Positions 1,164 through 55,305 of a DNA stretch of 64,000 nucleotides are shown piece by piece. The DNA lies in NCBI GenBank assembly GCA_965197005.1, contig OZ239982.1, positions 1,456,322 through 1,520,321 on the forward strand. The letters are read 5' to 3'. The position numbers and the translations under genes are program-made. The first letter of the stretch is position 1; every line of letters begins with the position of its first letter. The notes below the pieces were generated by a model. That model was not told where the DNA came from. It saw only the letters and a list, made by a program, of their open reading frames with translations, and made no database searches. This DNA comes from Pseudomonadales bacterium (GTDB lineage Bacteria; Pseudomonadota; Gammaproteobacteria; Pseudomonadales; Oceanobacteraceae).

Positions 1164-4100
1164 ATGAACGGTAAACGACAACATATTTCACAACAGCTCA
1201 ATCGTCGGGTTAAGATTTTAGGCTTAATCACGATTATCTCTGTTGCTACTGTAATTATTATTGCCTATACCTCTTTGTTATTTCAACAAAAAGATCGTTT
1301 TATCAGTCTTAAAAACAGCTCTGTATTAGAGGTTGAAAACTACCTCTCTGATGTTTTTTCTAGCTTACAATCCATTAATGACGCGCTGATGGTTTCTGAC
1401 GATAAGGCAAACTTATTAAACATTGCTCTAAGTCACAGAGAAAAAATCAAAGAAGTCTATTTAATTGAGAACAATAAAATCACCAGCTCGAGTAGCTATA
1501 TGTTGCGAGACATTAATTTAGCAGACAAACAATTAGCCAGCTGGTTAGCCAATTCATTTTCCAATGATGTGTATATGAGCCAGCCTTTTTTTGACCACAA
1601 TACCATTCCATATATCTATATTGGCACCAAAACCCGTAATGAAAGCAGCCAAGTCATACAAACTTTGGTGGCACGCTTAGATTTATCTAACCTTTGGGTA
1701 TATCTCAATCGTTTGGATTTAAACAAACAAGCAAGCACGGTTATCTATGATAAATCTGGGCGTATTATTTTGCATTCAAACTTACAAACTCTAAATAATA
1801 CTCGCTATATTGATAAACTATTTGATAACCCCGAATATACCGAGATAACAGATTTAGCGTTAAAAAGAAGAAATAAAAATCAGTTTTTTCTCCTAACAGG
1901 ACAACGCATATCCAGCACGACCTGGTATTTAGCTATTGAATACTCGCTTAGCAGTGTCACCAGTGTTTTTCTGCTGTCTGTTTTAGTGTTGGCTTTATTT
2001 TTCTCTTTAATTATTTTCTTGATTTATCAAATCAATCACTTTACGAGTAAAAAAGTCATTGAACCTATTTTTTTATTGCAACGTGGTGTAGAAGAATTAG
2101 AGGCAGGCAACTTAAATCATCGTTTAAATGATTTTGGCAATAATGAATTAGGTTATATTGCATTAGTGCTTAACAAGCTCTCATCTAGGTTATCTAACAC
2201 CTTGGCAAATTTAAACCATCGAGTAAAAGAGCTCAACACCAATAAACAAGCCTTAGAAAAAAGTGAAGCCAACTATCGCTCAGTGGTAAACAATGTAAAA
2301 GAAGTGCTCTTTAATACAGATCCTCAGGGTCGTTGGCAGTTTTTAAATCCCGCATGGGAAGAGATTACAGGTTTTAGTGTAGAAGAAACCTTAGGCAAAG
2401 ATATTTCTGATTTTATTTATGATGAAGATGTAGAGCACTGTTTAAAAACCTGCCATCAAATTTTAGGCTGTAACCTAGACTCTTATGAAGGTGAAGTTCG
2501 AATGTTGAAAAAAACAGGCGAATATCTATTTATGCAAATTTTTGCCAGCCCTTCATTTGATGATGCAGGTCATATTTTAGGTGTAACAGGTGTATTAAAT
2601 AATATTACAGAGCAAAAACTGGCACTCAAACAACTAAAACTGACCTCCAAAGTTTATGTTAATGCTCGTGAGGCGATTATCATTGCCGACCATGATGGTT
2701 TTATTGTTGATGCCAACCCTGCTTACAGCAGTATTACCGGTTATGAGATTAATGATGCCCTCACTAAAAACATTGGCATTGAAAACAACAACCTTAATCC
2801 CATTCACTTTAAACAAACGGTTTTAGAAGAAGCAAATCGTGTTGGCTACTGGAGTGGAGAACTAGAACAGACAGACAAAAACGGCAATGAATTTGTTATT
2901 CAGCTTACCATCAGTGCCATTACTGAAGGCAATAAAATACAAAACTATGTCGCCCTTTTCTCTGATGTTACAGAAAAATTTGAATATAAAAAGCAGCTTG
3001 AATACAGCGCTCATTATGATTCACTGACCAACTTGCCTAACCGTATTTTACTGGCACAAAACATAAAAGAAGCAATGGCAAAAGCACTACATGAAGATTA
3101 TCAAATTGCCATTTGCTACTTAGATTTAGATGGTTTTAAAGAAGTGAATGATATTTATGGGCACAATACAGGCGATAAACTGCTGATAGAAATTGCCGAA
3201 AACATCAAACAAACATTAAGAAAGCAAGACTTTATTGCTCGCCTTGGTGGTGATGAATTTGTGGCGGTTTTAATTGATATAGAAGAAGAAGCCTGTAAAT
3301 CTGTCCTTATGCAGCTACTGCAAACGGTCTCTCAACCCATGCAGGTTAACCATGAGCGTAAAGTACAAATTTCTGCCAGCTTAGGGGTCACTTTTTACCC
3401 ACAGCAGGGCGATTTTGATGCGGATCAACTGCTGCGCCAAGCTGACCAAGCTATGTATCAGGCAAAAATCTTAGGCAAAAACCGCTACCACTTTTTTGAT
3501 ACCGATAAAGACCGTGACTTACGGGGTATGAACCAAATTTTAGAACAAATTGCTTTAGGCGTTCAAAAACAAGAATTTGTACTGTTTTATCAACCCAAAG
3601 TCATGATGAAAACAGGCGAAGTCATTGGCTTTGAAGCCCTTATACGTTGGCAACACCCAGAGAGAGGACTGCTCTCACCTTTTTATTTTTTAGACCCTCT
3701 CAAAAATCAGCCTTTATCTATTGAGGTAGGCAACTGGGTAATTAAACAAGCCATATCACAGTTATCCACTTGGAATAAAAACGGCTTTAAAACAACCATT
3801 AGTATTAATGTAGACAGTTACCAGCTACAGCAAAGTAACTTTATCGCCTCGTTTATTGCTATTTTAAATGAGTATCCTAATGTGCATAACTCACAGGTTG
3901 AGTTTGAAATTTTAGAAAGTAACGCCTTAGAAGATATTTCATCAGTTTCACAAGTGGTGAAAGACTGTCGTGATATGGGGATACATTTTGCGCTAGATGA
4001 TTTTGGCACAGGTTTTTCCTCTTTATCTCATCTTAAAAACCTACCCGTACGCGACCTTAAAATTGACCGTAGTTTTATACGTGACATGCTTGAAGACCTT

Positions 4101-4673
4101 GATGATTTAAGTATCTTAGATGGTACTTTAGGCTTGGCTCAAGCGTTTCGTCGGGGCGTGGTTGCAGAGGGTGTTGAGACCATTGCCCAAGGCGATATAC
4201 TTTTAAAACTGGGCTGTGAAGTTGCCCAAGGTTTTGTGATTGCCAAGCCCATGCCCCAAGAGCAAGTATTAGACTGGATTAAAAAATGGCAAGTGCCAAG
4301 TAGCTGGCAAGAGCAAGAACCCTTACAAAGAAAAGACATTCCTTTATTATTCTTATTACTAGGACACCAAAGCTGGACTAAGCGGTTCTTTCAATTTATC
4401 TCTTCAAATGACAAAGAAAATGACGTTAACTGGAGTGACTGCCGTTTTCATAACTGGCTAAAAGAAGATGGAAACCTGCACTATAAAGATGAACCCATTA
4501 TTGATGAATTAATTAATTTGCATGCCACCATACATGAGTTTGCACAAAATATGACTATTCAAAAATCAAAAAACCCAGATGCTCCTTTAACGGATATGGA
4601 AACTGAACTTAAAAACATCAGTGAACAATTTTTATCCATGTTAAAAGAGCTGTCTTCCAGTAAATTAGATTAG
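1164..4673 (+). CDS. Membrane sensor protein with PAS, GGDEF and EAL domains and a C-terminal CZB (zinc-binding) domain; c-di-GMP turnover
   Basis: 1169-aa ORF. It has an N-terminal TM, a periplasmic-type region, a second TM and a HAMP-like linker, followed by two PAS-like segments. The GGDEF motif is intact (RLGGDEFVAV) and the EAL motif is intact (FEALIRW). The tail carries an H-x25-C-x27-H-x3-H signature. Confidence 0.85.
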   Translation: MNGKRQHISQQLNRRVKILGLITIISVATVIIIAYTSLLFQQKDRFISLKNSSVLEVENYLSDVFSSLQSINDALMVSDDKANLLNIALSHREKIKEVYLIENNKITSSSSYMLRDINLADKQLASWLANSFSNDVYMSQPFFDHNTIPYIYIGTKTRNESSQVIQTLVARLDLSNLWVYLNRLDLNKQASTVIYDKSGRIILHSNLQTLNNTRYIDKLFDNPEYTEITDLALKRRNKNQFFLLTGQRISSTTWYLAIEYSLSSVTSVFLLSVLVLALFFSLIIFLIYQINHFTSKKVIEPIFLLQRGVEELEAGNLNHRLNDFGNNELGYIALVLNKLSSRLSNTLANLNHRVKELNTNKQALEKSEANYRSVVNNVKEVLFNTDPQGRWQFLNPAWEEITGFSVEETLGKDISDFIYDEDVEHCLKTCHQILGCNLDSYEGEVRMLKKTGEYLFMQIFASPSFDDAGHILGVTGVLNNITEQKLALKQLKLTSKVYVNAREAIIIADHDGFIVDANPAYSSITGYEINDALTKNIGIENNNLNPIHFKQTVLEEANRVGYWSGELEQTDKNGNEFVIQLTISAITEGNKIQNYVALFSDVTEKFEYKKQLEYSAHYDSLTNLPNRILLAQNIKEAMAKALHEDYQIAICYLDLDGFKEVNDIYGHNTGDKLLIEIAENIKQTLRKQDFIARLGGDEFVAVLIDIEEEACKSVLMQLLQTVSQPMQVNHERKVQISASLGVTFYPQQGDFDADQLLRQADQAMYQAKILGKNRYHFFDTDKDRDLRGMNQILEQIALGVQKQEFVLFYQPKVMMKTGEVIGFEALIRWQHPERGLLSPFYFLDPLKNQPLSIEVGNWVIKQAISQLSTWNKNGFKTTISINVDSYQLQQSNFIASFIAILNEYPNVHNSQVEFEILESNALEDISSVSQVVKDCRDMGIHFALDDFGTGFSSLSHLKNLPVRDLKIDRSFIRDMLEDLDDLSILDGTLGLAQAFRRGVVAEGVETIAQGDILLKLGCEVAQGFVIAKPMPQEQVLDWIKKWQVPSSWQEQEPLQRKDIPLLFLLLGHQSWTKRFFQFISSNDKENDVNWSDCRFHNWLKEDGNLHYKDEPIIDELINLHATIHEFAQNMTIQKSKNPDAPLTDMETELKNISEQFLSMLKELSSSKLD

Positions 4674-36537: not shown

Positions 36538-36951
36538 TTAAAATGACGCATTAAGCAATAACTCTTGCAGCTCTTTAAGGCGGCTTTTAAGAGCCAATTC
36601 ATTATAAACCTGTGCCTCGCCCTGCCCCCAAATTGGCAGGGGCCAAAGCGCATCATCATAAAAGCGTGCTACATGATGAATATGTAACTGGGCAACCACA
36701 TTCCCTAAAGCAGCAATGTTCATTGAATCGGCATTAAAATGCTGTTGCATTTGCTCACTGACCCAACAGGACTCTGCCGTAAGCTGTTGCTGCTCAGAGG
36801 CACTTAGCTGGTATATTTCACTAACCAAGCTGCGCTTAGGCACTAAAATCACCCACGGAAAACGAGCCTCATTCATTAATAGTATTTGACACAAAGACAG
36901 ATGCCCTATTTCTAGCGTGTCTTTAGCTAACTGTGCATCTAAGCGAAACAT
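36538..36951 (-). CDS. HIT-family hydrolase
   Basis: 137 aa with a QLHIHHVARF histidine-triad-like motif. Confidence 0.65.
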   Translation of the reverse strand: MFRLDAQLAKDTLEIGHLSLCQILLMNEARFPWVILVPKRSLVSEIYQLSASEQQQLTAESCWVSEQMQQHFNADSMNIAALGNVVAQLHIHHVARFYDDALWPLPIWGQGEAQVYNELALKSRLKELQELLLNASF

Positions 36952-44828: not shown

Positions 44829-45234
44829 AAACTGGTTTTTATACTTTGTTTTAATGCTCTTTTTGCTGCTTTTTAAAAATGAACAGAGTATAAAAATAAG
44901 GTTGGACACATGGGTTTATATTGAGATTCTCTTTGTTTTTTCTGCTTTCTGCTTTCTGCTTAAAAACCTTAGCGAACCGTCGATTGCGGTTGTTGTTTGT
45001 CTATAACTTTGTTTTCTTCAAAGTATTGATTGTTGACTTGTTTTACCCTTTTTCATCTTTCATCTTTCTTTATTGATGATAGCTGAAGTTTGGGGTTATA
45101 TGATCAAGCCTCACGGGCAATTAGTATCAGTTAGCTCAACGCCTCACAACGCTTACACACCTGACCTATCAACCAGTTAGTCTTACTGGGCCCTACAGGA
45201 CTCTCTAGGAGTCAGTGAGATCTCATCTTGAAGG

Positions 45235-45268
<34 letters not shown>

Positions 45269-45327
45269 TGTCCGAACGTAGCTACCCGGCAATGCGTCTG
45301 GCGACACAACCGGAACACCAGTGGTTC

Positions 45328-45359
<32 letters not shown>

Positions 45360-45436
45360 TCTTCTCAAATCTCATACGCCCACGGCAGATAGGGACCGAA
45401 CTGTCTCACGACGTTCTAAACCCAGCTCGCGTACCA

Positions 45437-45469
<33 letters not shown>

Positions 45470-45471
45470 GG

Positions 45472-45514
<43 letters not shown>

Positions 45515-45543
45515 ACCGCCGTCGATGTGAACTCTTGGGCGGT

Positions 45544-45599
<56 letters not shown>

Positions 45600-45600
45600 A

Positions 45601-45642
<42 letters not shown>

Positions 45643-45720
45643 ATGTACGTCTCGCAGTTAAGCTGGCTTGTGCCATTACACTAACCGTATGATGTCCGAC
45701 CATACTTAGCCAACCTTCGT

Positions 45721-45763
<43 letters not shown>

Positions 45764-46025
45764 ACCCACCACACAGTGTCCTCGATCTGGTTTACAGATC
45801 TGAGTTAGAACCCCAAATCAATCAGGCTGGTATTTCAAGGACGACTCCACGCAAACTGGCGTCTGCGCTTCTATGTCTCCCAGCTATCCTACACAAATTA
45901 ATTCAAAGTTCACTGTGAAGCTGTAGTAAAGGTTCACGGGGTCTTTCCGTCTAGCCGCGGGAATGCTGCATCTTAACAGCAATTTCAATTTCACTGAGTC
46001 TTAGGTGGAGACAGTGTGGCCATCG

Positions 46026-46107
<82 letters not shown>

Positions 46108-46129
46108 TTGGGCTTCGATCAAGAGCTTC

Positions 46130-46728
46130 CCCAGCACCTAAATTTTCTGTTTCTCTAATGCCTTGCTTTCAATTAAATTTGTCTGTTATCCAACCTCTTT
46201 ATTCCTCTTCTGGAATTTAGGGGCTGGGCAAGCCCAGACTTTCTTTAATTATTTGCATCATCTTAATGCCTTGCTTTCAATTAAATTTGTCTGTTATCCA
46301 ACCTCTTTATTCCTCTTCTGGAATTTAGGGGCTGGGCAAGCCCAGACTTTCTTTAATTATTTGCATCATCTTAATGCCTTGCTTTCAATTAAATTTGTCT
46401 GTTATCCAACCTCTTTATTCCTCTTCTGGAATTTAGGGGCTGGGCAAGCCCAGACTTTCTTTAATTATTTGCATTAGTACTTGTTTTGTTTTCTTTGTTG
46501 TTTGAGTCTTTGTTATTTAGTTCTTTTAGCTAAATTCCATTTCTGAAATGCAGTTTCTAAATAAACTCTTAGCTTTTAGCTTTTAATAAAAAGATAAACT
46601 CTATCTAATTATAAGTGCTAAATGGCTTGCCCAGCCCCTAAATTCCATTTCTGAAATGCAGTTTCTGAACTTCCACTTAATTCAAACAAAAAGAAAATAC
46701 TTACAAGTAAAAAAATTTAGGTGCTGGG
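46130..46728 (-). other. 599-nt non-coding insertion at the apex of 23S helix 68 (IVS or expansion segment)
   Basis: E. coli reads GGGGTTA-GC-GCAA-GC-GAAGCTCTTGATCG here. This gene reads GGGGTTA-[599 nt]-GAAGCTCTTGATCG. The block is closed by a perfect 16-bp stem, 46130..46145 (CCCAGCACCTAAATTT) with 46713..46728 (AAATTTAGGTGCTGGG). Confidence 0.8.
46156..46475. repeat. Three perfect tandem copies of a 108-bp unit inside the helix-68 insertion
   Basis: TAATGCC anchors at 46156, 46264 and 46372. Copies are identical by eye, and the third is truncated at about 46475. Each copy contains CTGGG-CAAG-CCCAG, which is a CUUG tetraloop hairpin in rRNA sense. Confidence 0.9.
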
Positions 46729-47410
46729 TAACCCCATCAATTAACCTTCAAGCACCGGGCAGGCGTCACACCCTATACGTCCACTTTCGTGTTTGCAGAG
46801 TGCTGTGTTTTTAATAAACAGTCGCAGCCACCTGGTATCTTCGACTGGTCTCAGCTTACGCAGCAAGTGCTTCACCAAAACCAGCGCACCTTCTCCCGAA
46901 GTTACGGTGCCATTTTGCCTAGTTCCTTCACCTAAGTTCTCTCAAGCGCCTTGGTATTCTCTACCTACCCACCTGTGTCGGTTTTGGGTACGGTCTCTTT
47001 GTATCTGATGCTTAGAGGATTTTCCTGGAAGCATGGCATCAACCACTTCGGACACCGTAGTGTCACCGTCATCAGTTCTCGGCCTTGTGATTCCGGATTT
47101 GCCTAAAATCACAGCCTACTACCTTAAACACGGACTACCATCGCCGTGCTGGCCTAGCCTTCTCCGTCTCCCCATCGCAATACAAAAAGGTGCAGGAATA
47201 TTAACCTGCTTCCCATCGACTACGCTTCTCAGCCTCGTCTTAGGGACCGACTCACCCTGCCCCGATTAACGTTGGACAGGAACCCTTGGGTTTCCGGCGA
47301 GGGGGTTTTTCACCCCCTTTATCGTTACTCATGTCAGCATTCGCACTTCTGATACCTCCAGCCTGCTTCTCAGCTTGACCTTCAACGGCTTACAGAACGC
47401 TCCTCTACCG

Positions 47411-47878
47411 TTCAGAAGACTGAAGACAGTAGACTGATGACTGATTGCTTAACCCCAACTCTTGTGCAAGCCCGTTAACATTTTTGCTATGTCTTGGTAT
47501 GTCTTACGCCAAGACTGCCATGTCTCGTTGCTAATGTAGCCAAGATCCAAACTGTATCTTGTCCACACTCGCATCTCATCGGCTGAACCTATCGCCATAC
47601 TTAAGTAGCGTTTAAATTCAGCTTTGGATATGCGTTGCTTGCCATAGCCTTCCGCTATGTTTGCACAAATGCCTTTACTGGCTCTACGCATTTGATCTGC
47701 TAACCCATTGAGTTGTTCGTTCTTAGGAAATCTTAAGCTTGTTGTATGTACTTCTAAAGAAATCGCATACGCTTTCTTAAACACTTCTAAGTCTTCAAAA
47801 CTTTTTATTGAGTTAACTGGATTTTGCGTCCGTTGGTGTTTCATCTGTCTTCTGTCCTCTGTCTTCAGTCCTCTGAAC
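47411..47878 (-). other. 468-nt intervening sequence in 23S helix 45, carrying an ORF
   Basis: It replaces the E. coli helix-45 cap (CAACAACGCATAAGCGTCGCTG) between CTCTACCG and CCGTAGCTTCGGTG. The flanks TTCAGAAGACTGAAGACAG... and ...CTGTCTTCAGTCCTCTGAA form a 19-bp stem, in which the single mismatch becomes a G.U pair in rRNA sense. Confidence 0.85.
47449..47844 (-). CDS. Four-helix-bundle protein of the 23S rRNA intervening-sequence protein family (the misnamed S23 ribosomal protein family)
   Basis: 131 aa, same sense as the rRNA and lying entirely inside the helix-45 IVS. The sequence (FEDLEVFKKAYAISLEVH...ANIAEGYGKQ...KAEFKRYLSMAIGSADEMRVW) fits the family as I remember it. Confidence 0.85.
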   Translation of the reverse strand: MKHQRTQNPVNSIKSFEDLEVFKKAYAISLEVHTTSLRFPKNEQLNGLADQMRRASKGICANIAEGYGKQRISKAEFKRYLSMAIGSADEMRVWTRYSLDLGYISNETWQSWRKTYQDIAKMLTGLHKSWG

Positions 47879-48488
47879 CCGTAGCTTCGGTGTACAGTTT
47901 TAGCCCCGTTATATCTTCCGCGCAGGCCGACTCGACTAGTGAGCTATTACGCTTTCTTTAAAGGATGGCTGCTTCTAAGCCAACCTCCTAGCTGTCTGTG
48001 CCTTCCCACATCGTTTCCCACTTAACTGTAACTTTGGGACCTTAGCTGACGGTCTGGGTTGTTTCCCTTTCCACGACGGACGTTAGCACCCGCCGTGTGT
48101 CTCCCGGATAGTACTCTGTGGTATTCGGAGTTTGCAAAGGGTTGGTAAGTCGGGATGACCCCCTAGCCTTAACAGTGCTCTACCCCCACAGGTATTCGTC
48201 CGAGGCGCTACCTAAATAGCTTTCGAGGAGAACCAGCTATCTCCGGGCTTGATTAGCCTTTCACTCCTATCCACAAGTCATCCCCTCATTTTTCAACATA
48301 AGTGGGTTCGGTCCTCCAGTTGATGTTACTCAACCTTCAACCTGCTCATGGATAGATCGCCCGGTTTCGGGTCTAATGCTAGCGACTATTCGCGCAGTTA
48401 ACACTCGGTTTCCCTACGGCTCCGCTATTCGCTTAACCTTGCCACTAACATTAAGTCGCTGACCCATTATACAAAAGGTACGCCATCA

Positions 48489-48554
48489 CCCCGCCACCAA
48501 ATGTCTTTTGTCATTTGTGTCGTTATCAAATGCAACAAACATTTGGTGGCGGGG
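48489..48554 (-). other. Enlarged 23S helix 25 (66-nt hairpin against about 14 nt in E. coli)
   Basis: Perfect 16-bp stem CCCCGCCACCAAATGT / ACATTTGGTGGCGGGG plus an inner stem CATTTG/CAAATG. It replaces E. coli ACGCCTAAGCGTGC between GGTACGC..TCAC and CTGCTTGTACGTACACGG. Confidence 0.8.
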
Positions 48555-49201
48555 CTCTGACTGCTTGTACGTACACGGTTTCAGGGTCTATTTCACTCCC
48601 CTCACAGGGGTTCTTTTCGCCTTTCCCTCACGGTACTGGTTCACTATCGGTCATCTGGGAGTATTTAGCCTTGGAGGATGGTCCCCCCATATTCAGTCAG
48701 GATTTCTCGTGTCCCGACCTACTCGTCTTCATTGTATTATTCCTTTCGTGTACAAGACTTTCACTTTCTGCGGTTGCCCTTTCCAGAACATTCCACTAAA
48801 AATAATACAACTTAAGGGCTGCTCCCCGTTCGCTCGCCGCTACTTGGGGAATCTCGATTGATTTCTTTTCCTCGGGGTACTTAGATGTTTCAGTTCTCCC
48901 GGTTCGCCTCAATAACCTATGTATTCAGTTATTGATAACAGCTTATGCTGTTGGGTTTCCCCATTCAGATATCTTCGGATCAAAGGTTGTTTGCCACCTC
49001 CCCGAAACTTTTCGCAGGCTACCACGTCTTTCATCGCCTCCAGATGCCAAGGCATCCACCGTGCACGCTTAATTGCTTGATCATATAACCCTAAACTTCC
49101 TCATCTACCACAAGTAAAGTAGATGAAAATTAACAGCTCAGGATAACCAAACAATCGCCGGTTCGCTTGAGAATCTCATTTTATATTCTCATGTGTCCAA
49201 A

Positions 49202-49213
49202 TTTTTAAAGAAC
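49202..49213 (-). promoter_or_regulatory. boxA-like antitermination motif in the 16S-23S spacer
   Basis: The minus strand reads GTTCTTTAAAAA, compared with E. coli rrn boxA GCTCTTTAACAA. The identical 12-mer recurs in the leader at 51024..51035. Confidence 0.5.
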
Positions 49214-49307
49214 TATAAAAATAAGACTTAATTAAAATTAAACCTTATCCTTACTTCTAACAATAGATATTCGTGTGAGCACTTACATGCAATGTGCAAA
49301 CTTCGTT

Positions 49308-53736: not shown

Positions 53737-55305
53737 TTATTTTTCGCAGATAAATGATTTTTTATATGTCGTGGGATAATAGATATTTACTGTCCATGTG
53801 GATTTTAGTAGTCTGCCATTATCAAGATTATAATCCTCTGCCTTTAACTTTAACGCCGTAGCCAAAGCACTTAAATCCTCACCATTTGATACTTTAATCA
53901 CATGAGCACCTTTACCTTGGCAATAGGGTTTTGCTTCTGACAGTTTTTTCTTCTCGTACACCACCAAATATTGCTTTCCATTATAATTTTGCCAAGTTTC
54001 AGTACCGCCTGTTGAGCCGCCACCTGAGCTAGATTGCTTTTTGCAGATAGGGCGAGCGGAACTAGGAAAACCATACGACTTAACTTTCCAACCACCATAG
54101 CTAGAGCCTGCATCGTATAAAAATCGTATATATTTATCATACTGCTCAACCCAATATTGTTGACTGGAGTCAAATTTTAATGTTGTTGCAAGTGTATTGT
54201 ATGGCTTTAAAGAGTCTGCATCAGCCAGACTACCGCCTGCAGCCGTACAAGCTGTTTTAGCGTTATCTTGACTGCTTCCAGCAGAGAGTATTTTATATTC
54301 GCTTCCGTTATAACTAACCCAACCGCCTGAAGCAGATGTTTTTTTCGTAAATGCCTTATTATTTTTCAGCACCTTACCTGCTTGGTTGACATTTGCTTGC
54401 TCTTTCACTCGCAGTTCAAGGTCGCCCACAGCTAATGCAATATTGCCAACTTCCAATGGTTTTTTGGGTACTTCTGTCCAGTTTTTATCCCCTGCTTTTT
54501 TATATTCATACTGGTTTGGATTGGTATAGCCTGATACATAGGTCCAATCAAAGGTGTTTTTAGTATCATCAACCACAGGAGCAGTTGCCGCAGCAGGAGT
54601 TGGCAATATGCTGGTAAACGCCTTATGGTTGCTCAGCACCTTACCTGCTGTATTTTGCTTAGGCTTGGCTTTAACACGCAGTTGCAATGCGTCTTTTGCA
54701 ATATTTTGATTACCCACAGACAATGGTTTTTTATCTACCTCAAGCCAACTTTTAGCATTGCCAATGCGATATTCATAGTCTCTTACATCTACATAGCCTG
54801 TTACATTAGTCCAGTCAAAGGTATCATTGGCATCGTCAACCTGTGAGCCAGTAGGCGCAGCGGGGGTAGGCAATGTACTGGTAAATGCTGTATCACTTTT
54901 TAGTATGTTACCTGCATTATGTTTACCTGCTTGGGCTTTAACACGCACCTGTACAGCACCAGCAGCTAACGCCACATCGCCAATGCTCACAGGATTATCC
55001 CCCGCTACAGTCCAGTTAACACCGTTATCTACAGAATATTCATAATCCGAAGCTAAGGGGTAAGAGGCTAATGCCGTCCAGCCAAAGGTATTGCTACTGT
55101 CATCAACCTGTGGGTTACTAGGTGCTGCTGGTGTGATCAGCGGCTTAGGTTGCGTTGTTGGCACAATACTACTGCCGTTATTGGTGCTTGGTGCACTTAG
55201 TGTTGGGGTATCATCATTGCTGCTGCCACCGCCACAAGCAGAGAGCAAACCAGCAATAAGCAGCACATAAAGGGGCTTGCCTAATTGAGATTGTTGCATA
55301 GTCAT
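53737..55305 (-). CDS. Surface lipoprotein with three ~90-aa repeat modules and two C-terminal C-type-lectin-like modules
   Basis: 522 aa with a lipobox (LLSAC/GGGS). The module pattern DDxNDTFDWT..YEY..W...VGN....L.LRVKA....AGKVL occurs three times. The C-terminal modules have the pattern W..YNG..Y......A...C...G..L plus terminal Cys residues. Confidence 0.7.
   Translation of the reverse strand: MTMQQSQLGKPLYVLLIAGLLSACGGGSSNDDTPTLSAPSTNNGSSIVPTTQPKPLITPAAPSNPQVDDSSNTFGWTALASYPLASDYEYSVDNGVNWTVAGDNPVSIGDVALAAGAVQVRVKAQAGKHNAGNILKSDTAFTSTLPTPAAPTGSQVDDANDTFDWTNVTGYVDVRDYEYRIGNAKSWLEVDKKPLSVGNQNIAKDALQLRVKAKPKQNTAGKVLSNHKAFTSILPTPAAATAPVVDDTKNTFDWTYVSGYTNPNQYEYKKAGDKNWTEVPKKPLEVGNIALAVGDLELRVKEQANVNQAGKVLKNNKAFTKKTSASGGWVSYNGSEYKILSAGSSQDNAKTACTAAGGSLADADSLKPYNTLATTLKFDSSQQYWVEQYDKYIRFLYDAGSSYGGWKVKSYGFPSSARPICKKQSSSGGGSTGGTETWQNYNGKQYLVVYEKKKLSEAKPYCQGKGAHVIKVSNGEDLSALATALKLKAEDYNLDNGRLLKSTWTVNIYYPTTYKKSFICEK

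What the first reader, a model, noticed from the sequence alone, without database searches (positions are those of the whole stretch)
46130..46728. 599-nt insertion at the apex of 23S rRNA helix 68, a site I do not know as an IVS site
The 23S gene is 3997 nt long. Removing three blocks restores about 2.9 kb of collinear E. coli-like sequence. The largest block replaces the short cap that in E. coli reads GC-GCAA-GC between GGGGTTA and GAAGCTCTTGATCG. That places it in domain IV at the helix 68 apex, about E. coli 1865-1872 (numbering from memory). A perfect 16-bp stem closes the block (46130..46145 with 46713..46728), which is the geometry of an RNase III-excised IVS. It has no ORF of 60 aa or more in rRNA sense. 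The bacterial IVS sites I know of are helices 9, 25 and 45. Helix 68 faces the subunit interface and E-site region, so a retained 0.6-kb arm there would be remarkable, and excision would fragment the 23S at a new position.
Basis: partly seen in the sequence, partly recalled or inferred. Interest (0 to 1): 0.78.

Follow-up and report, generated by a model that had tools for sequence, protein, structure and literature searches.

The report
Decayed mobile insert in 23S helix 68
The 599-base block really sits at the tip of helix 68 of the 23S rRNA gene, and it is the worn-out, gene-less copy of a hairpin cassette that in other gammaproteobacteria carries a small GIY-YIG nuclease gene and occupies the tips of helices 25, 45 and 68, which adds helix 68 to the known sites for bacterial rRNA intervening sequences.

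Summary
The 23S gene lies at 45100-49082 on the minus strand. Block 46130-46728 replaces E. coli positions 1867-1874, the GC-GCAA-GC cap of helix 68 (H68). A 17-bp perfect stem closes it, and it has no ORF in rRNA sense.

It is not an isolated oddity. The same site and the same closing stem (CCCAGCACCTAAATTTT) occur in 23S genes of Methylomicrobium sp. wino1 and four uncultured gammaproteobacteria. A fifth (L018) shares the site but lacks the outer 5' arm. Lonepinella sp. has the site with a covarying stem. All seven carry an 83-86-aa GIY-YIG ORF, intact in six and cut off by the contig end in L006. dN/dS is 0.06-0.13 among five of them, and the predicted fold is Slx1/UPF0213-like.

The same type of cassette also fills H25 and H45 in other bacteria.

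The window copy keeps only the last 19 codons of that ORF. AT-rich filler precedes them, and a threefold 108-nt tandem array of ORF tail, inner arm and spacer follows. An intact homologue (P0010) appears to lie elsewhere in the same 2.71-Mb genome.

Best reading: a decayed, non-autonomous member of a GIY-YIG-bearing IVS family, probably cut out of the pre-rRNA by RNase III. Excision and nuclease-driven spread are inferred, not shown. I found no description of an H68 IVS site in the searchable literature.

The parts
45100..49082 (-). 23S rRNA gene (3983 nt) carrying three insertions
   Evidence: Rfam RF02541, 2720 bits, full model
46130..46728 (-). H68-apex block, 599 nt. It replaces E. coli 1867-1874. 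It is a decayed, ORF-less GIY-YIG-type IVS cassette.
   Evidence: cmscan insert position; E. coli mapping; homology of architecture to L003-L007, L010 and L018
46712..46728 (-). Outer 5' arm in rRNA sense (CCCAGCACCUAAAUUUU)
   Evidence: Inverted repeat I4. Its first 15 nt are identical in L003-L007, L011, L017, L018 (H25) and L139; all 17 nt match L003-L007, L018 (H25) and L139.
46130..46146 (-). Outer 3' arm (AAAAUUUAGGUGCUGGG). It pairs perfectly with the outer 5' arm and extends H68.
   Evidence: Covariation of this stem over 12 elements: 98.2% of cells paired, 11 of 19 pairs with changes on both sides.
46624..46647 (-). Inner 5' arm (UGGAAUUUAGGGGCUGGGCAAGCC). In relatives it lies 13-22 nt upstream of the ORF start, with an SD-like purine run in between.
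   Evidence: Inverted repeats I1-I3; alignment to wino1
46475..46623 (-). AT-rich filler (24% GC) where relatives have the GIY-YIG ORF. It includes a partial duplicate (46530-46561) of the 5' spacer and inner arm. Its last 18 nt (46475-46492) are the start of the ORF remnant listed next.
   Evidence: (family D2)
46433..46492 (-). Remnant of the GIY-YIG ORF: the last 19 codons plus stop (KTKQVLMQIIKESLGLPSP*). The stop codon lies inside the inner 3' arm.
   Evidence: tblastn of P0010: 17 of 19 residues identical to the P0010 C-terminus
46156..46474 (-). Tandem array, 3 x 108 nt, 100% identical. Each unit is ORF tail (MQIIKESLGLPSP*), inner 3' arm and 3' spacer. Units are bounded by the short direct repeat GGCATTA. 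The inner 3' arms lie at 46211-46234, 46319-46342 and 46427-46450.
   Evidence: TRF; the repeat finder; unit boundaries. The same kind of duplication, with 2 units, is seen in L018.
47410..47878 (-). Separate IVS at the H45 apex with a 131-aa ORF (47449-47844) of the 23S_rRNA_IVP / four-helix-bundle family. This is a different cassette type.
   Evidence: PF05635, 1.7e-29; TIGR02436
48489..48554 (-). 66-nt mini-IVS at the H25 apex. Its stem (CCCCGCCACCAAAUGU / ACAUUUGGUGGCGGGG) resembles the cassette stem.
   Evidence: cmscan insert after model position 583; included in the stem alignment

Best explanation
The block is a degenerate, non-autonomous copy of a mobile intervening-sequence (IVS) cassette.

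Intact cassette, in rRNA sense:
- an outer stem arm;
- a spacer of about 64 nt;
- an inner stem arm;
- an SD-like purine run and an 83-88-aa GIY-YIG nuclease ORF;
- a second inner arm;
- a second spacer of about 64 nt;
- a second outer arm.

The whole unit replaces the small apical loop of a 23S hairpin, which can be H25, H45 or, as here, H68. The host helix is thereby simply prolonged.

History of the window copy. Most of the ORF has been lost, and only the last 19 codons remain. Unequal recombination between short direct repeats (GGCATTA) has then triplicated the segment made of ORF tail, inner arm and spacer.

How it most likely works (inferred):
- The long closing duplex is cut by RNase III in the pre-rRNA, as happens for classical H25/H45 IVSs. 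This removes the block and leaves the 23S split at about position 1867-1874.
- With the H25 and H45 IVSs also removed, the pieces would be about 528, 610, 681 and 1030 nt.
- Spread of the family is most likely driven by the encoded Slx1-like nuclease, through cleavage of empty sites followed by copying from an occupied rrn allele.
- The window copy can only be maintained passively, or in trans by the intact copy that seems to exist elsewhere in the same genome.
For: Shown by tools:
1. Position at the H68 apex.
2. The same site in Methylomicrobium sp. wino1 (L003), four metagenomic 23S genes (L004-L007), L018 and Lonepinella sp. (L010). L003-L007 have an identical outer stem. L010 has a covarying stem. 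L018 lacks the outer 5' arm. The host 23S variable regions are only 74-88% identical to one another.
3. All these relatives carry a GIY-YIG ORF, intact in six and cut off by the contig end in L006 (PF01541, 7e-16). Among five of them dN/dS is 0.06-0.13 where dS could be estimated, while synonymous sites are near saturation.
4. The window retains KTKQVLMQIIKESLGLPSP*, matching the C-terminus of P0010. P0010 and the window's KARI protein share the same longest-contig length, 2,711,417 bp.
5. The same arms and ORF family sit at H25 (L011, L012-L014, L017, L139) and at H45 (L008/L009), and an ORF-less copy sits in H25 of L018.
6. The closing stem covaries: 98.2% of cells paired, 11 of 19 pairs changed on both sides, 0 of 500 shuffles as good. 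Positions 16-55 from each end are more complementary within an element than between elements (-18.1 against -12.4 kcal/mol; 0 of 20,000 permutations).
7. Minimum-free-energy folds pair the two outer arms in 6 of 7 H68 inserts.
8. The predicted fold (pLDDT 86) is nearest to the Slx1, UPF0213 and HIGLE nucleases.
9. No Rfam family, including introns, matches the block.

From the literature: IVSs replace tetraloops at H9, H25 and H45 and are excised by RNase III without re-ligation (PMC4990558, PMC8708148).
Against: - No RNA-level data exist for any member, so excision at H68 is inferred only by analogy.
- For the H68 elements the complementarity beyond the conserved arms is weak (cognate ranks 1-10 of 12).
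- L018 has an intact ORF but lacks the outer 5' arm at H68, so closure by that stem is not universal.
- The four arms are mutually complementary, so two topologies are possible. L011 and L017 covary in favour of two local hairpins rather than the long-range stems.
- Nuclease activity and target are untested. An 85-aa protein has no separate DNA-binding domain.
- Homologues at about 50% identity sit in ordinary non-rRNA contexts (L015/L016 in a pyrimidine operon; L141 next to the tmRNA gene).
Its locus could not be fetched.
Confidence: 0.75

Rival explanations
1. Retained expansion segment. The 599-nt arm stays in the mature 23S and projects from the H68 tip near the L1 stalk and E site.
For: No tool here shows excision. 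H68 lies at the surface of the 50S subunit (PMC9040758). The block folds into a closed extension of H68. An unprocessed Salmonella IVS is tolerated in E. coli ribosomes (PMC8708148).
Against: The content is not conserved between hosts: it is an ORF, filler, or 1-3 tandem units. The three repeats are 100% identical, so they are recent. The filler is 24% GC. Relatives carry a selected ORF preceded by an SD-like purine run, and that ORF must be read as mRNA. The same cassette occupies H25 and H45, the classical excised sites. H68 takes part in bridges B2b and B7a and in L1-stalk coordination. Only one tolerated insertion was found in domain IV of E. coli 23S, in H63 (PMC2441807).
Confidence: 0.12
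2. A MITE or IS-like insertion has inactivated this rrn copy, so the 23S gene is a pseudogene.
For: The element is repetitive, AT-rich and non-coding. A solitary hairpin module of the same sequence exists outside rRNA in a Methylomicrobium MAG (L002).
Against: The 23S gene matches the full Rfam model at 2720 bits with an intact core. The insertion keeps H68 closed. The same site is occupied in eight divergent hosts with ORFs under purifying selection. Both rrn copies of one genome (L008/L009) carry the H45 version. No other copy of the motif lies in the 64-kb window. There is no target-site duplication.
Confidence: 0.04
3. Assembly artefact or chimera inside the rRNA gene.
For: rRNA operons and perfect tandem repeats are hard to assemble. 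The copy number of the 108-nt unit (three) could be wrong.
Against: The same junctions occur in two complete genomes (CP024202, CP170385) and in five independent metagenome or MAG contigs. The source contig is 2.71 Mb long.
Confidence: 0.02
4. A self-splicing group I or group II intron, or another known structured RNA.
For: rRNA genes of some of these bacteria do carry group I introns (L011, RF00028).
Against: No Rfam match reaches the gathering score, and none has E <= 0.5 (the only match listed up to E = 1 is a plant microRNA family at E = 0.57). The block replaces a variable apical loop rather than interrupting a conserved core sequence. Its ends form a plain long stem.
Confidence: 0.01

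Closest known systems
Classical RNase III-excised 23S rRNA intervening sequences at helices 25 and 45, and helix 9 in Alphaproteobacteria (Salmonella, Yersinia, Campylobacter, Leptospira, Coxiella)
   Same: It replaces the small apical loop of a 23S hairpin with an extended stem-loop whose ends are inverted repeats. Its distribution is sporadic. Members of the same cassette family sit exactly at H25 and H45 (PMC4990558).
   Different: The site is H68 in domain IV, which the papers searched do not list. Relatives carry a GIY-YIG nuclease gene rather than no ORF or the S23p/IVP ORF. The stem architecture is two-tiered with four mutually complementary arms. Excision has not been shown.
GIY-YIG-encoding, non-intron insertion sequences in rRNA genes of CPR bacteria (Tsurumaki et al. 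2024, PMC11270868)
   Same: Small GIY-YIG ORFs lie inside rRNA-gene insertions that are neither group I nor group II introns and sit mostly at the tops of stem-loops.
   Different: Those were catalogued in CPR bacteria only (15 in 16S, 15 in 23S). [quoted passage not shown] The text held here does not report conserved arms or H68. The elements found here are in Gammaproteobacteria and share a conserved stem sequence across three sites.
Group I introns, and archaeal bulge-helix-bulge rRNA introns, that carry homing endonuclease genes
   Same: The logic is the same (inference). A nuclease gene rides inside an RNA element that is removed from the rRNA precursor, so insertion into an essential gene is tolerated. 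Decay and loss of the ORF, as in the window copy, matches the gain-degeneration-loss cycle described for such elements.
   Different: There is no ribozyme core. Removal would be by a host dsRNA nuclease without re-ligation. The insertion is in variable loop tips, not conserved functional sequence. The nuclease is of Slx1/UPF0213 type rather than LAGLIDADG or I-TevI type.
Slx1 / UPF0213 (YhbQ-like) / HIGLE GIY-YIG structure-specific nucleases
   Same: These are the nearest solved relatives by sequence (4xlg, E = 3e-4) and by fold (Slx1 TM 0.59-0.65; 1zg2 UPF0213; 7wme HIGLE). The Tyr, Tyr, Arg, His and Glu positions of the GIY-YIG core are invariant in 46 homologues.
   Different: The protein is only 83-88 aa, with no RING or partner-binding domain. 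It is encoded inside rRNA hairpin cassettes. Its activity and substrate are unknown.
Eukaryotic and archaeal rRNA expansion segments
   Same: Extra RNA emanates from the tip of a conserved helix.
   Different: Domain IV is credited with only ES27 and ES28, and only one tolerated insertion was found in it, in H63 (PMC2441807). The present block is variable, recently duplicated and derived from a mobile cassette.

Membership tests
Bacterial 23S rRNA intervening sequence (IVS) | Replaces the apical loop of a 23S hairpin, leaving the host helix intact | tested here: met
   It replaces E. coli 1867-1874 (GC-GCAA-GC) of H68.
Bacterial 23S rRNA intervening sequence (IVS) | Terminal inverted repeats form a long stem | tested here: met
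   17 perfect bp, 19 with G-U and A-U. The stem covaries across 12 elements.
Bacterial 23S rRNA intervening sequence (IVS) | Excised from pre-23S by RNase III without re-ligation, giving fragmented 23S | not testable with these tools
   No RNA data are available. This is inferred by analogy with H25/H45 members of the same cassette family.
Bacterial 23S rRNA intervening sequence (IVS) | Sporadic distribution among taxa and operons | tested here: met
   Present at H68 in eight divergent 23S genes. H68 is uninterrupted in L008, L011, L012 and L017.
Bacterial 23S rRNA intervening sequence (IVS) | Located at one of the usual sites (H9, H25, H45) | tested here: not met
   The site is H68. This is a habit of the family rather than a strict defining feature (PMC4990558).
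GIY-YIG hairpin cassette (the family defined here by L003-L007, L010-L012, L017, L018, L139, L008) | Terminal stem of the CCCAGCACCTAAATT / AATTTAGGTGCTGGG type | tested here: met
   The outer 5' arm is identical to that of L003-L007.
GIY-YIG hairpin cassette (the family defined here by L003-L007, L010-L012, L017, L018, L139, L008) | Inner arm pair (GGAATTTAGGNGCTGGGCAAGCC) flanking the coding region, with spacers of about 64-70 nt | tested here: met
   Module loops are 69 nt in the window and 68-73 nt in relatives.
GIY-YIG hairpin cassette (the family defined here by L003-L007, L010-L012, L017, L018, L139, L008) | Intact GIY-YIG ORF in rRNA sense | tested here: not met
   Only the last 19 codons remain, and the last 13 are present three times. 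The window copy is a decayed derivative, like the ORF-less H25 copy in L018.
Group I / group II intron | Conserved catalytic RNA core | tested here: not met
   No Rfam match at the gathering score, and none better than E = 0.57, inside the block. The same search finds a group I intron in L011.
I-TevI-type GIY-YIG homing endonuclease | GIY-YIG catalytic domain joined to a separate DNA-binding domain | tested here: not met
   The relatives' proteins are 83-88 aa and consist of the catalytic domain only. TIGR01453 scores 25 bits against a cut-off of 56. The fold is closer to Slx1/UPF0213 than to I-TevI.
MITE / IS-type transposable element | Many dispersed genomic copies and target-site duplications | tested here: not met
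   The motif occurs only inside the block within the 64-kb window. No duplication is seen at the junctions. One solitary module exists outside rRNA in L002.
Retained rRNA expansion segment | Present in mature ribosomal RNA | not testable with these tools
   This needs RNA-seq, a northern blot or cryo-EM.

The most novel reading that the evidence does not exclude
The cassette may be a so far undescribed kind of mobile element: a 'hairpin-tip homing' element.

Under this reading its Slx1-like GIY-YIG nuclease recognises DNA structure. It would cut the hairpin or cruciform tips, or four-way junctions, that form at inverted repeats encoding rRNA hairpins. It would do so together with its own strictly conserved arms.

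That would explain three things:
- why IVSs always sit at helix apexes;
- why one cassette can occupy H25, H45 and H68;
- why the arms are 100% conserved while synonymous sites and spacers are saturated.

Classical ORF-less IVSs, including the window's 66-nt H25 mini-stem, would then be decayed relics of such cassettes.
Probability: 0.3. Interest if true: 0.85.

Novelty: new variant of a known kind. Interest (0 to 1): 0.68.

Why it matters
How IVSs arise and spread, and why they occupy only a few helix tips, has been an open question since their discovery in Salmonella in 1990.

This finding adds a third major site. H68 lies in domain IV and takes part in intersubunit bridges and L1-stalk coordination. 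If the block is excised, functional ribosomes tolerate a break there.

The finding also ties IVSs at three sites to one cassette. That cassette has a conserved stem and a small nuclease gene under purifying selection, which gives a concrete, testable candidate for the mobility mechanism.

Two hosts have complete genome sequences: Methylomicrobium sp. wino1 and Lonepinella sp. MS14436. They are the natural organisms for such experiments, if the strains can be obtained.

There is a practical consequence as well. These ORFs lie inside rRNA genes, where annotation pipelines do not call CDSs. The inserts also break rRNA contigs in metagenome assemblies. The family is therefore systematically overlooked.

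Tried and rejected
- Exact look-up of the window's H45 ORF and of P0010 found no record. The second rrn copy of the source genome could therefore not be fetched.
- The listing of cluster members gave no names or accessions.
- The neighbouring-gene look-up returned only a 3.5-kb Logan contig.
- A viral-contig scan with the 15-nt arm core returned 120+ hits. None has the paired arm within 160 nt, so they are chance matches.
- There were no matches of the element in E. coli genomes, or of P0010 in plasmids or phages.
- Testing whether the 5' and 3' spacers of H68 elements co-evolve gave no signal. Cognate duplexes were no better than non-cognate ones. A wider test over all 12 elements was positive, driven mainly by the H25 and H45 elements.
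- Literature searches found nothing on an H68 IVS, on GIY-YIG with IVS, or on rRNA fragmentation in methanotrophs.
- My first guess that the host is a methanotroph or a large sulfur bacterium was wrong. The KARI protein's closest named relatives, at about 82% identity, are Oceanospirillaceae and Bermanella; Reinekea follows at 77-79%.
Full report

Yes. Rfam places a full-length bacterial LSU rRNA on the minus strand at 45100-49082 (2720 bits), with 16S and 5S beside it.

A cmscan of 45980-46880 shows a 595-nt insertion in place of the 4-nt apical loop of the hairpin that precedes H69.

To avoid numbering from memory, I mapped the 3' flank onto an annotated E. coli 23S gene (NC_011741). GATGGGGTTA ends at A1866 and GAAGCTCTTG starts at G1875. 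Block 46130-46728 (599 nt) therefore replaces G1867-C1874, the GC-GCAA-GC cap of H68.

The closing stem is 17 perfect base pairs, 46130-46146 with 46712-46728. The block folds far better than shuffled versions (-190 kcal/mol, z = -10.7). It has no sense-strand ORF of 40 aa or more.

The block also contains a perfect 3 x 108-nt tandem repeat. The motif AATTTAGGNGCTGGG occurs six times in the block and nowhere else in the window, apart from one 2-mismatch match at 36620.

The two other insertions are also real:
- an H45 IVS at 47410-47878, with a 131-aa 23S_rRNA_IVP ORF;
- a 66-nt stem at the H25 apex, 48489-48554.

**2. Relatives**

A degenerate pattern of the internal motif, scanned over one genome per species, hit two records.
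- L003 is the 23S gene of Methylomicrobium sp. wino1 (CP024202). It has a 503-nt insert at exactly the same place with the same outer stem.
- L002 is a solitary hairpin of the same sequence in an intergenic region of a Methylomicrobium MAG.

A junction pattern scanned over metagenomes hit four contigs. All four are 23S genes with the same H68 insert.

Every one of these five relatives carries an ORF in rRNA sense that begins MFYVYCI. Four are complete at 83-85 aa, and the L006 ORF is cut off by the contig end. Most have a GGAG-like purine run 6-9 nt upstream. Pfam calls the ORF GIY-YIG (PF01541, 7e-16).

**3. The cassette and its sites**

A homologue search with the wino1 protein found 196 clusters, most of them on short contigs. 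I looked up the genomic context for nine of them.

| Site in 23S | E. coli positions replaced | Loci |
|---|---|---|
| H68 | 1867-1874 | L010 (Lonepinella sp. MS14436, CP170385; a simpler single 18-bp stem, CCCCTCACCTAGATTGTC / GACAATCTAGGTGAGGGG) and L018 |
| H25 | 540-553 | L011, L012-L014, L017, L139 (Lacimicrobium alkaliphilum) |
| H45 | 1164-1184 | L008 and L009, two rrn copies of one genome |
| Not in rRNA | - | L015/L016 (pyrimidine operon) and L141 (a CPR bacterium, between smpB and the tmRNA gene) |

These assignments rest.

The H25 and H45 elements use the same terminal sequence, CCCAGCAC... / ...GTGCTGGG. The H25 elements also have the same two-tier layout as the H68 ones. In L018, a single 23S gene has an ORF-less copy in H25 and an ORF-bearing copy in H68.

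**4. Anatomy and constraint**

Intact H68 elements read, in rRNA sense:
- outer 5' arm, CCCAGCACCTAAATTTTTT;
- a 64-nt spacer;
- inner 5' arm, GGAATTTAGGTGCTGGGCAAGCCC;
- a leader with an SD-like purine run;
- the ORF;
- inner 3' arm, GGGCTTGCCCAGCTCTAAATTYCC;
- a 62-65-nt spacer;
- outer 3' arm, GAGAAAATTTAGGGCTGGG.

Among four such elements the outer 5', inner 5' and outer 3' arms are 100% identical. By contrast the spacers are 44-51% identical and ORF third codon positions 51% identical. dN/dS is 0.06-0.13 where dS could be estimated, with pS of 0.47-0.73. The protein is therefore under purifying selection, and the arms are under sequence-level constraint, not only pairing constraint.

Across 12 elements at three sites the terminal stem covaries. 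Of all cells, 98.2% are paired, 11 of 19 pairs have changes on both sides, and 0 of 500 shuffles reach that.

Beyond the conserved 15 nt, the two ends of one element are more complementary to each other than to the ends of other elements (-18.1 against -12.4 kcal/mol; 0 of 20,000 permutations). This signal comes mainly from the H25 and H45 elements.

Minimum-free-energy folds pair outer arm with outer arm in 6 of 7 H68 inserts.

The four arms are all mutually complementary, so a second topology exists. It has two local 100-nt hairpins plus an ORF stem, which together with H68 make a gap-free four-way junction. L011 and L017 covary in favour of this second form, whereas the window copy favours the long-range form. 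I could not decide between them.

**5. The window copy is a relic**

P0010 is an 88-aa homologue. Its only contig is 2,711,417 bp long, the same length as the contig that carries the window's own KARI protein.

tblastn of P0010 matches the window block three times through its last 14 residues. In frame, the block reads ...KTKQVLMQIIKESLGLPSP* and then twice more MQIIKESLGLPSP*. P0010 ends ...KTKQALMQRIKESLGLPSP, and the stop codon lies inside the inner 3' arm.

The rest of the ORF is replaced by 24%-GC filler, which contains a partial duplicate of the 5' spacer and inner arm.

The tandem units are bounded by GGCATTA. In L005 this short direct repeat occurs once in the ORF tail (codons QALM) and once at the end of the 3' spacer. 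L018 has two units and the window has three. This is the signature of unequal recombination between short direct repeats.

The window element is therefore non-autonomous. An intact copy probably sits in another rrn operon of the same genome. This last point is inferred, because the P0010 locus could not be retrieved.

**6. The protein**

AlphaFold on a 46-sequence alignment gives pLDDT 86 with a beta-beta-alpha-beta-alpha-alpha layout.

Foldseek against the PDB ranks the Slx1 nuclease domains first (probability 1.00, TM 0.59-0.65). UPF0213 BH0048 and the plant HIGLE nuclease follow. I-TevI and UvrC rank far lower. A sequence search of the PDB agrees (Slx1, E = 3e-4).

Invariant residues include Y3, Y5, Y17, G19, R27, H31 and E50. 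These correspond to the GIY, YIG, Arg, His and Glu positions of the superfamily; that correspondence is from my own knowledge.

The protein is thus a minimal catalytic domain of the branched-DNA-nuclease clade, without a DNA-binding domain.

**7. Mechanism**

Shown:
- the position;
- family membership;
- ORF decay;
- selection on the stem and on the protein.

Inferred by analogy with H25/H45 IVSs (PMC4990558, PMC8708148): RNase III cuts the closing duplex in the pre-rRNA and the 23S remains in pieces held together by the ribosome.

Also inferred:
- The excised RNA serves as mRNA for the nuclease.
- The nuclease promotes copying of the cassette into empty hairpin tips.
- It may recognise DNA structure together with the conserved arms.

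Hosts with an H68 insert are very diverse. Their 23S variable regions are 74-88% identical, and they include Methylococcales, Pasteurellaceae and an Oceanospirillales-like organism. This pattern needs either ancient inheritance with many losses or horizontal spread.

**8. What is known**

The reviews and surveys I could search list H9, H25 and H45 as the IVS sites. None mentions H68.

In E. coli, random insertion mapping found only one tolerated site in domain IV, in H63 (PMC2441807).

H68 contributes to bridges B2b and B7a and to L1-stalk coordination (PMC9040758).

GIY-YIG ORFs in non-intron rRNA insertions have been catalogued in CPR bacteria (PMC11270868). The text held here reports no conserved stem and no H68 site, and the authors judged these ORFs unlikely to spread by homing.

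I therefore class the finding as a new variant of a known kind: an IVS at a new site, belonging to a cassette family whose architecture and three-site range are not described in the literature available to me. Subscription-only papers were not searchable, which limits this claim.

**9. Rivals**

- A retained expansion segment cannot be excluded without RNA data, but it fits the variable, freshly duplicated content poorly.
- A pseudogene, an assembly artefact and an intron are each contradicted by specific results.

**10. Verdict**

The element in this window is itself a dead copy. Its value is that it leads to a living family that can be tested.

Noticed in passing
window 47410-47878 (ORF 47449-47844, minus strand): A second, unrelated IVS sits at the H45 apex. 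It carries a 131-aa 23S_rRNA_IVP / four-helix-bundle ORF (PF05635, 1.7e-29; TIGR02436). Its stem contains a 14-nt tandem repeat at 47844-47875.
   Followed up: partly
window 48489-48554: A 66-nt mini-IVS at the H25 apex. Its stem (CCCCGCCACCAAATGT / ACATTTGGTGGCGGGG) resembles the cassette stem, especially that of L012 (CCCCGCACCTAAATTTG). It may be a fully decayed relic of the same family.
   Followed up: partly
window about 48813 (23S model positions 274-315): About 42 consensus positions in the H9/H10 area of domain I are missing from this 23S gene in the Rfam alignment.
   Followed up: no
L002 1693-1775 (Methylomicrobium MAG SLIO01000158): A solitary hairpin module (CCCAGCACCTAAATT, 34 nt, AATTTAGGTGCTGGG) lies in an ordinary intergenic spacer. 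Next to it are 10 nt identical to the 23S H68 5' flank (GATGGGGTTA). It looks as if a module and a piece of rDNA were copied out of an H68 IVS.
   Followed up: partly
L018 1858-2126 and 3394-3988 (GCA_002754915, PDWI01101968): One 23S gene carries an ORF-less cassette in H25 and an ORF-bearing cassette in H68. The H68 copy has two tandem units of ORF tail, inner arm and spacer, and it lacks the outer 5' arm.
   Followed up: partly
L141 3501-4108 (CPR bacterium, JACROR010000011): A GIY-YIG homologue (P0096, 50% identical) lies directly between smpB and the tmRNA gene (3767-4108). This is another structured-RNA neighbourhood.
   Followed up: no
L011 5794-6185 and 6523-6999; L017 5442-5858: The 23S genes that carry the H25 cassette also carry LAGLIDADG ORFs in the 3' half, and L011 has a group I intron there (Rfam RF00028). 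These genes are multiply invaded.
   Followed up: no
H68 and H25 cassettes in L003-L007, L011, L012, L017, L018, L139 and the window: The loop of every arm-spacer-arm module is 68-73 nt long although its sequence is not conserved. A 10-nt direct repeat, GGCATTAATG, occurs both in the ORF tail and at the end of the 3' spacer in L005 and L018; the window keeps only its core, GGCATTA. Both features are unexplained.
   Followed up: partly
window 49083-49307: The 16S-23S spacer is only about 225 nt long and holds no tRNA gene.
   Followed up: no
window 53737-55305 (minus strand): A 522-aa ORF with only weak, odd Pfam hits (C-type lectin 1e-7; influenza PB2 '627' domain 2e-6). Both are single weak hits with no matched stretch passing the threshold on its own, and they are probably spurious.
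   Followed up: no
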